Assembly (NCBI GenBank): GCA_039030515.1
Contig: JBCCEA010000059.1
Span: 1-15,445, forward strand
DNA length: 15,445 nt
Direction: 5' to 3'
From: Myxococcota bacterium
GTDB lineage: Bacteria > Myxococcota_A > Polyangia > Polyangiales > Houyiibacteriaceae
The stretch's first letter is position 1. The number at the start of each line of letters is the position of its first letter. The position numbers are program-made. This document shows, piece by piece, positions 3,001 to 6,000 of the stretch.

Positions 3001-6000
3001 CGCGAACTCCGCAATCTAATAGAGCGTCTCGTGATCTTAATCATCGGCAGCACGATAACTGAATCCGACATCCACTCTGTGATTCCATTCGGACAGCGTT
3101 CCTCGTCGATTTCCAAGGGATTTGTGCCGGGAATGCCTTTGAGGCAGATGATGGATGGCGTGGAGCGCGACCTGATCCTTCAAGCTTTGGACTACAACCG
3201 GGGACACATCACGAACACCGCTGCGAGTTTGGGTCTTGAGCGAAGCCATCTATATAAAAAAATGAAGGCATTAGGGATTCGAAAAGAAGCCAAAATGAAC
3301 GTCGCCGAGTCGATCGATCTCGACGATATGATCGATTCTTGATGTCAGAGAATATCGACTCCTAATATGCATTTTAGAACTACGTCGTTGACCTTCTCCT
3401 ACACAGAAACACTACGTCATCAAGAATCTGCACTGGAGATTCTTGATTGCCGCGGCATAAGTATGGTGCACGTGAAAAAGCATCTACGTGCCAGCCCAGT
3501 GGCTGCAAAAGGTAGGCTGTTAGTGCCGTTACTCCAGCTTCCCACGACCGACTGTCTGCAGGTAATTGCTCTTCTGGTGCGCAAATGTGTCCGCCTACCT
3601 GCACATGAGGGCGTAGCGGTAGAGGGACAGCCAGAGCTAAATACCCCTGTTCACCAACGAATCGCGCAATGTTCTCCATAAGAGTAATCGGACGTTTCGT
3701 GCGGTCGATCACGTTGAGCAACGTGACCATATCAAAACCTCTGTGGAGAAGCTCTGAGGATATTTCGTTTGTCAAATCGACAGGAAATGCACTGTAGCCA
3801 AGACGTTTCAGGCGCTCAACCATGGGGAGACTCGTTTCTGTTGCCTCTACAGACTCAAAAAGAGGAGCGAGCTCTCTTGTGACTTGCCCGTCTCCGGCGC
3901 CAACGTCGAGCAAGCGTGCGCCCAAGAAGTCTTGGCCAAGCAGTGCTTGCCACTGCCGGGTTCCCAAGACGCGCATCGAGAAAATGCCTAGCGTTCCGTT
4001 GATGTCGTAGTCGCTCATCTTTCTTCGAACCGCCTCACGGACCTGCATCACGGCGTCACTGTGCGGTTGTTCTAATGCATTATCGATCCATCGTTTTGTT
4101 GAGTCATCCAAGCCGAGCGGTCGAAATCGGTTTCTCAGTGATTTCGGCAGTGCTTCTGTGTCGCAGGTGTAGTGCAGCGATAAGCCTCGATAACGGATCA
4201 TAGGCTCTCTTGACATCGACTCCATTGATCGCAAGCAGCTTTCTGACCGAAGATATATTCGTTGTCCTCAATGCACACAGCGATAAGCTGCGGAAGAATC
4301 GCAAACGCACATGATCGATGCGCGTAAGCGCTCCGAAGCTCTAAGTTAATGACAACAGAGTCGGAGCCTGGTTCATTCAATTGAATGCAGTGGCAAATCT
4401 GCAAACTTCTCAGCCCGGGCCTCCTATGTTTGACTCGACCGTGGCCCCTTTGAATATGGGTTAGACACGTATACTTTCTGAATCTCCATGTAGATATCCC
4501 CTTTGGGACGCTGAACGAATACCTCGTCACCCTCTTCCTTGCCGAGGATTGCCCGGGCGACAGGTGAGTCACAGCTGATGCTGTCGGGATCTGCTCCGGT
4601 CTCGTCAGGGCCAACAATGCGATAGGTTTTCTCGAAGCCTTCCCCGTTCAAAAGGAGCACCCAGCATCCGAAGTAGACCTTCCCGTCGTCTTTGGGAACT
4701 CCGTCAACGATCTGCAGTACTTCAAGTCGTTTACCCAGAAACTTAAGACGGCGATCGATCTCCATAAGCTTTTTCTTGCTGTAGATGTACTCCGCGTTCT
4801 CTGATCGATCCCCTTCCGCTGCTGCAGTTGCGACCGCTTTCGTCACCTTAGGCCGCTCTATGTTCCAGAGATGGGCGGCTTCCTCTTCTAGACGCCGATA
4901 TCCCTCGAGGGTGATGAAGCCGGCCCGACCCGAAGTGTCTGGACGGTTCCTCTGTCGACTCTTGCCACGCATATCGCTGATGTAGCAGCTCCAGCCGCGA
5001 GGGCAGCACCCCCAGTCAAAGCAAGGTTTGAGCCTCTGTAGATCGTTTTCGCTTGCACGCTCCGTGTCCGTGGATCCTCCTTCATGTATGTTTGAAGCCG
5101 TGCCCTCTATTCCCATTCTTGCGAGTGGTGATGCGCGTCGCAGAGTGGAACGCCTCGATCTGCCGTTCAATAGTTTGGGATTTGACCCCTACGGTATCGA
5201 TAAGGACCAGCTGGCCCGACTCTACACGGTGCTCGGATGGATGCGCGCTCGCTACTTCGAGGCCGAAGAGTTTGGTCTCGAGCATGTACCAACTCGAGGG
5301 CGCGCGATGCTTGTCGGCAATCACTCTGGAGGCATTGCGATCGATGGGGCCATGGTCATGGCCAGTTTGTTTTTCGGTCGAGACGAACCGCGCCTGGCGC
5401 AGGGAATGGCCGAGAAGTTCCTCCATCGAACCCCGTTTGCCAGCTACATACTCAATCGGGTGGGTGCGCTAACCGGTCTGCCCGAGCATGCGGTGCGTTT
5501 GCTCGAAGACGAGCGGTTGTTGATGGTATTTCCGGAAGGCGCTCGCGGCACAGCAAAGCTCTTTCATGAACGCGACTCGCTGGTCGAATTCGGCACAGGC
5601 TTCATGCGGTTGTCCCTCCAGACCGGAACCCCTATCGTCCCCTTTGCGTTTGTCGGCGGAGGCGAAGCGATCCCGACCGTTGCGAATCTTTATGGCTTAG
5701 GTAAGTTGCTCGGTGTTCCCTATGTCCCAGTGACGCCCTGGGTTTTGCCGTTTCCGATGCCGGTTCGATTTGAGTTGATCTACGGCGCTCCGATGCGCTT
5801 CGAGGGCACCGGAAACGAAGAAGACCGCCAGATTCGCCGGTACGTGGAGCAAGTAAAAGAGCGGGTGGGCGGGCTGATCGCTCAAGCGAGGGCGGTTCGA
5901 GAAGGAACAATGCATCCATCGGACTTGAACTACTCATGAAGGTGGCGATTACCGGTATTTCCGGAACGATCGGTAGGAGCGTCGCCTCGCGCCTTGTCGA

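What a model noticed while it worked through the whole genome (the two positions that open the first line are those of the whole stretch)
3380..4201. A METTL9-type protein-histidine N-pi-methyltransferase in a bacterium, with an HGH-repeat metal permease as likely targe [...]
g03220 (273 aa) matches animal METTL9, the enzyme that makes 1-methylhistidine in HxH motifs of zinc transporters and S100A9, over its whole length, and the genome also encodes a Fur-family-linked permease (g01029, C8:53108-54925) ending in GGHHHGHGHHHGHGHHHGHGHG, six overlapping HGH motifs of the kind METTL9 prefers. I read g03220 as a bacterial protein-histidine methyltransferase that tunes metal binding of His-rich transporter tails. 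This modification is so far an animal story; a bacterial enzyme-substrate pair would extend it to prokaryotes and give a small soluble enzyme for site-specific His methylation.
Evidence so far: pfam.tsv: DREV (PF05219); swissprot.tsv: 35% to mouse METTL9 over 268 of 273 aa, all five best hits eukaryotic. Call 139 (phmmer vs PDB): best 4 hits are METTL9/DREV structures (9vpq, 7y9c E 2.5e-37, query 11-267 vs chain 13-271 of 274), LLDVGAGDG aligned to LLDLGAGDG. Call 137: PF05219 over its cut-off in 1 of 60 other Myxococcota genomes sampled and 0 of 14 control genomes. Calls 133, 136: of 3336 proteins only two have >=4 H[ANGST]H motifs (g01029 with 8, six in the last 18 residues; g02176 with 5); g01029 is divergent from FUR-family g01028. 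METTL9 substrates from abstracts/passages of PMC8571522 and PMC13274687 and recall.
(Added by a program. Inside this text positions count along the whole contig: contig position 1 is position 1 of the stretch shown here. "Call 12" and the like, gene names such as g00115 and contig names such as C1 are that model's own, and its searches are not shown. The text may have been shortened before it was handed on; [...] marks where a part breaks off. The agent that wrote the report below was given it as the finding of a first reader that could run no searches.)

Follow-up and report, generated by a model that had tools for sequence, protein, structure and literature searches.

The report
Bacterial METTL9-type histidine methyltransferase homologue
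This gene of an uncultured marine myxobacterium encodes a genuine relative of METTL9, the eukaryotic enzyme that methylates histidines in His-x-His motifs, and belongs to a large unstudied bacterial branch of that family, but nothing found here ties it to the histidine-tailed metal permease proposed as its target.

Summary
Window 3380-4201, minus strand, encodes an intact 273-aa protein that matches Pfam DREV end to end (143 bits, cut-off 26). It hits solved METTL9 structures at E 2.5e-37, and its model superposes on them at TM 0.84-0.89.

It is not an isolated or recent import. The family occurs in 98 of 251 sampled genomes of the window's own order and in a few Nevskiales. These bacterial sequences form a branch separate from the eukaryotic enzymes.

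The cofactor site, the catalytic Asp-Arg and the pocket for the first histidine are kept. The pocket for the middle residue and three peptide-binding residues differ throughout the bacterial branch.

The proposed substrate, a 605-aa Cu/Zn-efflux-like permease with an HGH-rich tail, is real, but the pairing is unsupported:
- 54 of 98 enzyme-bearing genomes lack any homologue.
- Six genomes without the enzyme keep HxH-rich tails.
- Four non-myxobacterial carriers have no such tail.

Best reading: a bacterial-subfamily protein or peptide histidine N-pi methyltransferase with unknown targets. This scan already found the same kind on another genome.

The parts
3380..4201 (-). Gene for a 273-aa METTL9/DREV-family SAM-dependent methyltransferase. 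The open frame runs up to a TTG at 4234, and a database copy of the window's own protein has 278 aa.
   Evidence: frame; Pfam DREV 143 bits; PDB METTL9 E 2.5e-37; P0002, 278 aa; model pLDDT 96.5; TM 0.84-0.89 to METTL9 structures
3887..3913 (-). SAM-binding motif I, LLDVGAGDG (residues 97-105). D99, G101 and D104 correspond to human D151, G153 and D156.
   Evidence: translation; aligned to LLDLGAGDG; D and G invariant in 166 of 166 rows; roles, PMC10308197 section 2.2
3701..3715 (-). NVIDR (residues 163-167). N163 = human N210 (cofactor). D166 = D213, the Asp that holds N3 of the target imidazole. R167 = R214.
   Evidence: translation; D and R in 166 of 166 rows; N in 162 of 166; D213A loses binding and activity
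3455..3466 (-). PYLC (residues 246-249). Y247 = human Y295 and C249 = C297. With M76 (M126) and L260 (L308) they form the pocket for the first histidine of HxH.
   Evidence: translation; Y in 164 of 166 rows; PMC10308197 section 2.6

Best explanation
The gene encodes an intact, cytoplasmic, stand-alone SAM-dependent methyltransferase of the METTL9/DREV family. It belongs to a bacterial sister branch of the eukaryotic enzymes. Shown: family, fold, and conservation of the cofactor site, of the Asp-Arg pair that orients a histidine imidazole so that N-pi faces SAM, and of the pocket that reads a histidine two residues upstream. Inferred: it transfers a methyl group to N-pi (N1) of a histidine in a His-x-His-like peptide context. 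Its preference for the middle and flanking residues should differ from human METTL9, because that part of the pocket is remodelled throughout the bacterial branch. Its targets are unknown. The HGH-tailed permease may be one of them, but it is neither required nor specifically linked.
For: Family and fold:
- Pfam DREV at full length, 143 bits.
- PDB METTL9 hits at E 2.5e-37 over 257 residues.
- AlphaFold2 model with pLDDT 96.5; its ten best Foldseek hits are all METTL9 structures, TM 0.84-0.89, rmsd 2.0-2.7 A.

Residues (roles from sections 2.2-2.7 of PMC10308197):
- Kept: D99, G101, D104, T121, E122, N163, D166, R167, Y247, C249, M76, L260, N68.
- D151, G153, D213 and R214 are invariant in 166 of 166 rows.

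Spread: 98 of 251 genomes of the order carry it, with one match listed per genome. The library of cluster representatives holds 988 hits at E <= 1e-3. The bacterial and eukaryotic rows split with support 99 (FastTree) and 98 (IQ-TREE). This points to a long-kept, selected gene.

Other points: the N-terminus as read shows no hydrophobic signal-like stretch. Neighbours vary, as expected of an enzyme that acts in trans.
Against: There is no biochemical evidence for any bacterial member. The query differs at residues whose mutation cripples human METTL9: R123 to I73, D300 to N252 and Y247 to H199 (each alanine mutant loses over 90% of activity), and E249 to Q201 (E249A abolishes peptide binding). 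The x-pocket keeps only 1 of 3 residues. After METTL9, the nearest solved folds are OvoM, OvsM and OvoA, which N-methylate free thio- or selenohistidine (TM about 0.5), so a small-molecule acceptor is not excluded. The query sits on a long end branch (0.87-0.99 against a median of 0.73-0.75).
Confidence: 0.55

Rival explanations
1. One reading: a dedicated enzyme-substrate pair, in which the methyltransferase methylates the HGH repeats in the C-terminal tail of the Fur-linked permease (C8:53108-54925) to tune its metal binding.
For: The tail exists and is the richest HxH stretch in the genome. The permease matches the SO_0444 Cu/Zn efflux family (216 bits, below the 300 cut-off) and ArsP_1 (132 bits), and lies divergent to a Fur-family gene. 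Human METTL9 methylates HxH repeats of zinc transporters and this lowers zinc affinity (PMC10308197 section 2.8; PMC7873184 passages). The residues after the last membrane helix are basic, which suggests a cytoplasmic tail (read; inference). Raw trend: tails with 3 or more small-x HxH in 18 of 36 permeases from enzyme-bearing genomes against 6 of 24 from the others.
Against: The two genes lie on different contigs. 54 of 98 enzyme-bearing genomes have no permease homologue at E <= 1e-30; among them,'s list of genomes without a match, are G059 and G512 (completeness given as 100). Genomes without the enzyme keep HxH-rich tails: G305 11 motifs, G547 7, G330 6, G487 4, G458 3, G436 3. Enzyme-bearing G474 and G427 have none. 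The trend has p 0.064 before any correction for kinship and p 1 in 4 independent pairs. Of 4 non-myxobacterial carriers, 3 lack the permease and 1 has it without a His tail. No His-rich gene is a conserved neighbour in 19 loci.
Confidence: 0.1
2. It methylates the imidazole of a small molecule or a ribosomal natural-product peptide (a free histidine derivative, a thiohistidine, a dipeptide or a RiPP) and not proteins in general.
For: Apart from METTL9, the best matches are ovothiol and ovoselenol N-methyltransferases: PDB OvoM at E 5.3e-4, NCBIfam ovoA_Cterm at 34 bits, and Foldseek OvoM, OvsM and OvoA at TM 0.48-0.54. The peptide-binding part of the pocket is remodelled. The genome makes a thiohistidine: EgtC over its cut-off and an EgtB-like gene at 323 bits (cut-off 360). 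That myxobacteria are rich in natural products is recalled, not tested.
Against: The likeness to METTL9 is far stronger and covers the N-terminal helices that build the peptide pocket (E 1e-37 against 5e-4; TM 0.87 against 0.5). The pocket for the upstream histidine is kept. No OvoA was found (118 bits, cut-off 400). No biosynthetic genes are conserved beside the gene in 19 + 7 loci. Ergothioneine carries no N-pi methyl group (established chemistry, recalled).
Confidence: 0.2
3. It is a nucleic-acid methyltransferase, as was claimed for the C. elegans orthologue METL-9 (DNA 6mA).
For: PMC10397248 (search listing and abstract only) reports DNA 6mA activity for METL-9.
Against: PMC12269839 (abstract and passages) detected protein methylation by the C. 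elegans enzyme. The query keeps the histidine-orienting Asp-Arg and the histidine pocket. The Pfam scan of this protein at E <= 0.01 listed no DNA- or RNA-methylase family.
Confidence: 0.03
4. It is a decaying or functionless leftover of a transfer, without a native target.
For: The end branch is long. The gene's GC is 52.4% against 57.4% for the genome. The query departs from the bacterial consensus at D300 (N) and Y306 (Q).
Against: The frame is intact, and every column that is invariant or at least 90% conserved in a 70-sequence alignment is kept. The whole first 5 kb of the contig has low GC, not this gene alone. The family is kept in 98 of 251 genomes of the order.
Confidence: 0.03

Closest known systems
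Human and mouse METTL9 (protein-L-histidine N-pros-methyltransferase; PDB 7Y9C, 7YF2-4, 8GZE, 9VPQ)
   Same: The DREV domain aligns end to end at 33-35% identity, with TM 0.84-0.89. Motif I, E174, N210, D213-R214 and Y295 are kept, as is the pocket for the first histidine: Y295, M126, C297, L308.
   Different: It has no N-terminal signal or extension: 273 aa, against 318 aa for human METTL9 (PMC10308197 section 2.1) and a median of 322 aa on the eukaryotic side of the tree. The x-pocket is changed (R114 to D, T115 to Y, R123 to I), and so are E249 to Q, Y247 to H, D300 to N and W255 to I. It falls in a separate bacterial clade. Substrates and activity are untested.
Ostreococcus tauri METTL9-like methyltransferase (PDB 8BVI) and other protist orthologues
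   Same: Same family (E 8.7e-34; TM 0.87/0.80). Passages of PMC12269839 show that orthologues need HxH yet differ in substrate choice, a precedent for changed specificity.
   Different: They are eukaryotic. The named relatives on that side of the tree are oomycetes, fish, trypanosomes and a dinoflagellate, and the query is not among them.
Uncharacterised bacterial DREV proteins of Polyangiales/Sandaracinaceae genomes assembled from metagenomes and of Nevskiales (e.g. Stenotrophobium rhamnosiphilum GT1R17, locus L027)
   Same: 42-52% identical over the full length, with the same clade signatures: D at R114, Y/F at T115, P at V241, no Glu at E249.
   Different: The query is a divergent member on a long branch. 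It has N, not D, at the D300 position and Q, not Y, at Y306.
OvoM / OvsM / OvoA C-terminal domain (N-pi methyltransferases of 5-thio- or 5-selenohistidine)
   Same: Same chemistry on the same imidazole nitrogen. They are the next-best structural neighbours (TM about 0.5) and share a short sequence stretch over residues 154-198.
   Different: Only the Rossmann core is shared. They lack the METTL9 N-terminal helices and act on a free amino acid. No OvoA partner was found in this genome.

Membership tests
METTL9/DREV (Pfam PF05219) | Full-length match to the DREV profile above the curated cut-off | tested here: met
   143.3 bits against a cut-off of 26; profile positions 2-263 of 265
METTL9/DREV (Pfam PF05219) | Seven-beta-strand fold wrapped by N-terminal helices, as in solved METTL9 | tested here: met
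   AF2 model with pLDDT 96.5 and pTM 0.93. The ten best Foldseek hits are METTL9 structures, TM 0.84-0.89 over about 269 columns.
METTL9/DREV (Pfam PF05219) | Cofactor-binding residues (D151, G153, D156, T173, E174, N210, Y295) | tested here: met
   D99, G101, D104, T121, E122, N163, Y247. Roles from PMC10308197 section 2.2.
METTL9/DREV (Pfam PF05219) | Catalytic Asp213 (holds imidazole N3) with Arg214 | tested here: met
   D166-R167, invariant in 166 of 166 aligned rows
METTL9/DREV (Pfam PF05219) | Pocket for the histidine at i-2 (Y295, M126, C297, L308) | tested here: met
   Y247, M76, C249, L260. In the bacterial clade: Y 109/111, M 83/111 (L 20), S or C 99/111, L 102/111.
METTL9/DREV (Pfam PF05219) | Small x-pocket (R114, N118, R123) that enforces x = A/N/G/S/T | tested here: not met
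   D64, N68, I73: 1 of 3 kept. Bacterial clade: D in 79 of 111 rows at R114, and M/T/A/I at R123.
METTL9/DREV (Pfam PF05219) | Peptide-binding residues Y247, E249, D300 | tested here: not met
   H199, Q201, N252. E249 is Y/H/F in 85 of 111 bacterial rows but E in 48 of 55 rows on the eukaryotic side.
METTL9/DREV (Pfam PF05219) | Placement within the clade of characterised (eukaryotic) METTL9 enzymes | tested here: not met
   Bacterial and eukaryotic rows split at support 99 and 98; the query lies on the bacterial side.
METTL9/DREV (Pfam PF05219) | N-pi methylation of the second His of HxH in proteins | not testable with these tools
   Needs an enzyme assay or methyl-histidine proteomics.
METTL9-zinc transporter enzyme-substrate relation (as proposed for g01029) | Enzyme and HxH-tailed permease occur together across genomes | tested here: not met
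   44/54/85/68 table, odds ratio 0.65. HxH tails occur without the enzyme and the enzyme without tails. 4 independent pairs give p 1, with little power. Non-myxobacterial carriers lack the tail.
OvoM / OvoA C-terminal thiohistidine N-methyltransferases | Match to the family model over its cut-off, and an OvoA sulfoxide synthase in the genome | tested here: not met
   ovoA_Cterm 34.4 bits (cut-off 170). ovoA_Nterm best 118.6 bits (cut-off 400); that gene scores higher as EgtB (323 bits).

The most novel reading that the evidence does not exclude
Members of this bacterial clade are the first bacterial protein-histidine N-pi methyltransferases. They act on His-x-His-type stretches of metal-handling proteins, the His-rich tails of the Cu/Zn-efflux-like permease family among them, so histidine methylation as a way of tuning metal binding would not be confined to eukaryotes. 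The clean split between a diverse myxobacterial clade and the eukaryotic clade would then mark an ancient link between Myxococcota and eukaryotes, not a recent import.
Probability: 0.25. Interest if true: 0.75.

Novelty: new variant of a known kind. Interest (0 to 1): 0.5.

Why it matters
In the papers I could search, protein histidine N-pi methylation is described only for eukaryotes, and no bacterial protein-histidine methyltransferase is mentioned. A large bacterial branch of the METTL9 family has an intact catalytic core and a systematically different substrate pocket. It would offer a direct test of whether bacteria methylate protein histidines, small soluble enzymes with possibly new sequence preferences for site-specific histidine methylation, and a data point on gene sharing between myxobacteria and eukaryotes. 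One cultured carrier, Stenotrophobium rhamnosiphilum GT1R17, makes the test practical. The specific permease story adds nothing yet.

Tried and rejected
- **DNA pattern for six alternating His codons** across 251 genomes. It matched 231 genomes, and the reversed-pattern control gave about equal counts. Hexanucleotide microsatellites dominate, so it is uninformative for co-occurrence.
- **His-rich ORFs beside the gene in relatives**. The GHGHGH run next to the gene in L015 reads as a microsatellite upstream of a Kelch-like lipoprotein's likely start, not a coding partner. The others are spurious high-GC frames or lie 7 kb away.
- **Conserved-neighbour search** in 19 loci plus 7 more. Only partial synteny appeared (Fe/Mn superoxide dismutase in 7 loci, DciA and FHA in 8, GMC oxidoreductase in 6, PhoX in 5), and none of it reaches the window. 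Only L004 shares the acyltransferase and epimerase.
- **The HSHSHSHSHSH ORF on C22** (P0269). It has no homologue in 250 other genomes of the order, so it cannot be a conserved target.
- **Complex prediction**, enzyme against the last 45 residues of the permease: no answer (score 0.00, controls not run). This counts neither for nor against binding.
- **The look-up of sequencing runs**: no RNA holder listed. There were four DNA runs of one marine-metagenome study, one of which may be the source.
- **The listing of cluster members** could not be made (database off). Clade labels therefore rest on 30 named genome loci, one representative identified by its match to solved vertebrate METTL9, and source names.
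- **The search for related loci with a 24-sequence alignment** failed for lack of a conserved stretch. The repeat with 11 closer sequences used a single peptide pattern, so its list of organisms is a lower bound.
- **Promoter and terminator scan** around the gene: at chance level.
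Full report
**Observation.**
The finding's coordinates hold a real gene on the minus strand. The frame is open from 4234 to 3380, and the ATG at 4201 gives a 273-aa protein, P0001. It matches Pfam DREV (PF05219) at 143.3 bits against a cut-off of 26, over profile positions 2-263 of 265. No NCBIfam model reaches its cut-off; the best is ovoA_Cterm at 34 bits against 170.

Against the PDB sequences, 6 distinct chains match at E <= 0.001. The best four are METTL9/DREV enzymes: 9vpq and 7y9c at 2.5e-37, 8gze at 2.2e-35, and Ostreococcus 8bvi at 8.7e-34. The other two are far weaker: OvoM at 5.3e-4 and a Bacillus methyltransferase at 6e-4.

The window is the whole of contig C59 of a 4.08-Mb genome in 75 contigs, 85% complete. 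Genome GC is 57.4% and the gene's is 52.4%. The whole first 5 kb of the contig lies at 49-55%, so the gene is not an island of its own.

**Fold and residues.**
An AlphaFold2 model built on a 70-sequence alignment has mean pLDDT 96.5 and pTM 0.93. Its ten best Foldseek hits in the PDB are all METTL9 structures: TM 0.84-0.89, rmsd 2.0-2.7 A, 33-35% identity. The next tier is OvoM, OvsM and OvoA at TM about 0.5.

I took the functional residues from sections 2.1-2.8 of PMC10308197, which I read. I mapped them by hand on the HMMER alignment. I checked the map with a MAFFT alignment that includes P0202, a representative that matches solved vertebrate METTL9 at E 7.5e-172.

Kept in the query:
- Cofactor site: D99, G101, D104, T121, E122, N163, Y247.
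- The Asp-Arg pair that holds N3 of the target imidazole: D166-R167.
- All four residues of the pocket for the histidine at i-2: Y247, M76, C249, L260.

Changed in the query:
- Two of the three x-pocket residues: R114 to D64 and R123 to I73.
- T115 to Y65, V241 to P193, H245 to R197, Y247 to H199, E249 to Q201, W255 to I206, D300 to N252, Y306 to Q258.

The paper reports that R123A, D300A and Y247A lose over 90% of activity and that E249A abolishes peptide binding.

Most of these changes are signatures of the whole bacterial branch, not quirks of this gene. The table compares 111 rows on the bacterial side with 55 on the other side.

| Human residue | Bacterial side (111 rows) | Other side (55 rows) |
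|---|---|---|
| R114 | D in 79 | R in 13 (most common), then L, H, N |
| T115 | Y or F in 110 | T in 48 |
| R123 | M, T, A or I in 98 | R in 31 |
| V241 | P in 96 | V in 46 |
| E249 | Y, H or F in 85 | E in 48 |

D151, G153, D213 and R214 are invariant in all 166 rows.

**Distribution.**
The word-indexed protein search found 266 relatives. The best 120 are 42-52% identical to the query. Those that carry names are Polyangiales, Myxococcales or 'Deltaproteobacteria' genomes assembled from metagenomes, and one is already called 'methyltransferase-like protein 9 [Myxococcales bacterium]'. The exhaustive search of cluster representatives gave 988 hits at E <= 1e-3 and 106 at E <= 1e-30.

Among 401 Myxococcota genomes, 19 (G000 included) have a full-length match of 91-158 bits. 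All 19 are marked same family or same order. The next-best match in the sample is a 35-bit partial hit to the generic methyltransferase core.

In a denser sample of the order, 98 of 251 genomes match at E <= 1e-20. The spread is patchy: genus g2 0 of 41, family f6 0 of 31, f7 27 of 32, f73 10 of 10. None of the 14 control genomes matched. One of the 98, G479, is flagged unpublished. The tallies include it, and leaving it out changes each by one.

A scan of one genome per species, limited to one peptide pattern, returned 34 loci. Most are Polyangiales or Sandaracinus genomes assembled from metagenomes. Three full-length copies are in Gammaproteobacteria: cultured Stenotrophobium rhamnosiphilum GT1R17, a Panacagrimonas genome and one uncultured genome. 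Two more are in Pseudomonadota genomes assembled from metagenomes.

**Phylogeny.**
The first tree (FastTree) had 166 rows:
- the query;
- 30 proteins read from named loci;
- 135 representatives of at least 240 aa (14 shorter ones dropped).

It splits into 111 rows holding the query and every named bacterial locus, and 55 rows holding the vertebrate representative, with support 99 on both sides. A profile of 16 rows from the 55-row side finds named oomycete, fish, trypanosome and dinoflagellate proteins, plus one partial protein labelled 'archaeon'.

An IQ-TREE quick run on 53 rows repeats the split at SH-aLRT 98. I had taken the two groups from the first tree, so only the 16 named bacterial rows and the eukaryotic rows that carry a label test it independently: seven named by a source and one known by its match to solved vertebrate METTL9.

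The Nevskiales copies nest inside the myxobacterial clade (support 99 and 96-99), which suggests transfer from Myxococcota. The trees are unrooted, so the direction of the link between bacteria and eukaryotes is open. A recent import from a eukaryote into this genome is not what they show.

**Genomic context.**
In the window the gene lies tail to tail with two tandem sigma-54 response-regulator genes. It follows, on its own strand, a GreA-like gene after a 222-bp gap. Further on come an acyltransferase, an epimerase, a Ser/Thr kinase, a chemoreceptor and TatA/TatC.

Of 18 relatives' loci, only L004 shares the acyltransferase and epimerase. All-against-all clustering shows partial synteny only: superoxide dismutase in 7 loci, DciA and FHA proteins in 8, GMC oxidoreductase in 6, PhoX in 5. 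The Nevskiales contexts are different again.

The gene therefore stands alone, and its neighbours say nothing about its target.

**The proposed substrate.**
C8:53108-54925 encodes a 605-aa membrane protein:
- an N-terminal part of about 250 aa with only a faint ZIP match (E 0.046, not significant);
- an ArsP_1 permease domain (132 bits);
- a match to the SO_0444 Cu/Zn efflux family (216 bits, below the 300 cut-off).

It ends GGHHHGHGHHHGHGHHHGHGHG and lies divergent to a Fur-family gene. It is the ORF richest in HxH in the genome.

129 of 251 genomes of the order match at E <= 1e-30, many over residues 1-605. In genus g2 the two halves are separate genes.

Enzyme and permease presence are not associated:

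| | Permease homologue | No homologue |
|---|---|---|
| Enzyme present | 44 | 54 |
| Enzyme absent | 85 | 68 |

The odds ratio is 0.65 and p is 0.12.

I fetched the best place of 60 of the 129 genomes, working from the top's table. I left out the split and partial forms and some lower-ranked, weaker-scoring full-length matches from f6 and f75, so 69 genomes were not examined. I then read the last 45 residues of each. Tails with 3 or more small-x HxH motifs occur in 18 of 36 permeases from genomes with the enzyme and in 6 of 24 from genomes without it (p 0.064, kin not independent).
- Without the enzyme but with such tails: G305 (11 motifs), G547 (7), G330 (6), G487 (4), G458 (3), G436 (3).
- With the enzyme but with bare tails: G474 and G427 (0 motifs each).

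On a tree of the permeases built without their tails, only 4 independent pairs differ in the enzyme, and the tail trait follows in no consistent direction (p 1). That test has little power.

Of the four non-myxobacterial carriers, three have no permease homologue at E <= 1e-10. The fourth has one at 31% identity with no small-x HxH motif at all.

The pairing is thus not excluded for this genome. It is not a conserved feature of the family, and no evidence specific to it was found.

**Rivals.**
A small-molecule acceptor is the main rival, because the next-nearest enzymes methylate the same nitrogen of free thio- or selenohistidine. Against it:
- the genome has no OvoA (118 bits, cut-off 400);
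- the gene that gave that match scores higher as EgtB (323 bits, cut-off 360) and lies beside EgtC, which is over its cut-off;
- the METTL9-specific N-terminal helices and the pocket for the upstream histidine are kept.

A nucleic-acid role, as was claimed for the C. elegans orthologue (abstract only), has no support here. Decay is unlikely: the frame is intact, and every column that is invariant or at least 90% conserved is kept.

**Literature and earlier notes.**
- PMC7873184 (passages) and PMC12269839 (abstract and passages) place METTL9 orthologues throughout eukaryotes apart from fungi and land plants. Their uses of 'bacteria' concern expression hosts or infection.
- The 2026 review PMC13027442 has no occurrence of 'bacteri' or 'prokaryot'.
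- PMC8662637 treats metazoan METTLs only (passages).
- The searches 'METTL9 + prokaryot', 'DREV + myxobacteria' and a four-term search on histidine methylation in bacteria listed no paper whose title or abstract concerns a bacterial member. I did not open these papers, apart from PMC13027442 and PMC8662637.

Subscription journals and the supplements, including Supplementary Fig. 1 of PMC7873184 on orthologue distribution, were not seen and may bear on this.

This scan had already noted the same kind of gene on another genome, with the same reading (e1-3225309). My tests agree with that note.

**Verdict.**
The gene is a real, intact member of a bacterial subfamily of the METTL9 family. It most likely methylates N-pi of histidine in peptides or proteins, with a changed sequence preference. 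Its targets are unknown, and the permease link is a guess that comparative data do not back.

Noticed in passing
G000 contig C1, locus L055 1859-10520 (minus strand): A heavy-metal efflux-type cluster: outer-membrane factor, then a CusB/HlyD-type adaptor, an AcrB-type pump, a small 209-aa class I SAM methyltransferase and a P-type ATPase. The adaptor is a lipoprotein with a His/Asp/Glu-rich N-terminus and ends GHGHAH. A methyltransferase inside a metal-efflux operon is unusual. It gave the genome's second, partial DREV hit (34 bits, core only).
   Followed up: partly
table; loci L056-L115: The His-tailed permease family is one fused gene of about 600 aa in many genomes of the order. In genus g2 it is split into a 235-aa N-terminal gene and an ArsP_1 gene of about 400 aa at separate places. 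His-rich C-terminal tails of very varied make-up (HGH, HDH, HEH, HAH repeats, CC endings) are common in the family.
   Followed up: partly
e.g. L015 2113-2400 and 9593-9913: Hexanucleotide microsatellites of the (CACGGN)n type are widespread in genomes of this order. They read as GHGHGH in one frame, also outside likely coding sequence. A reversed-pattern control matched about as often.
   Followed up: partly
L009 17485-18000 (+): A 171-aa ORF with a signal-like N-terminus, the stretch KAHGHAHGHHGHQGHGHGHG and a long charged helical part, about 7 kb from the DREV gene of G265. It has no Pfam match.
   Followed up: no
G000 contig C22, L054 4938-5807 (minus strand); paralogues at C22:48499-49248 and C7:114911-115165: An orphan ORF family carrying HSHSHSHSHSH. 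It has no homologue in 250 other genomes of the order, but there are three copies in this genome, one with an in-frame stop.
   Followed up: partly
G000 contig C39, L116 3398-5490 (minus strand): An EgtB-like gene (323 bits, cut-off 360) and EgtC (237 bits, cut-off 219) sit at a contig end, so the organism probably makes ergothioneine or a relative. EgtD was not looked for.
   Followed up: partly
window 320-3342 (+): Two tandem paralogous sigma-54-dependent response regulators (receiver, AAA+ and Fis-type HTH domains), tail to tail with the methyltransferase gene.
   Followed up: no
window 7541-8902 (-): A 453-aa ORF with only faint, short hits to DNA/RNA methylase motifs (UPF0020 at E 2e-5, N6_N4_Mtase at E 2e-4, neither reaching its family's cut-off). 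What it is remains unknown.
   Followed up: no
window 800-4800: The first 5 kb of the contig has 49-55% GC, against 57-58% for the rest and 57.4% for the genome.
   Followed up: no
P0334: A 370-aa partial protein on a 1.8-kb contig, labelled 'archaeon' by its source, came up in the profile search made with the eukaryote-side rows (E 1.8e-83). It was not placed on a tree. It may be a binning error or an archaeal member.
   Followed up: no
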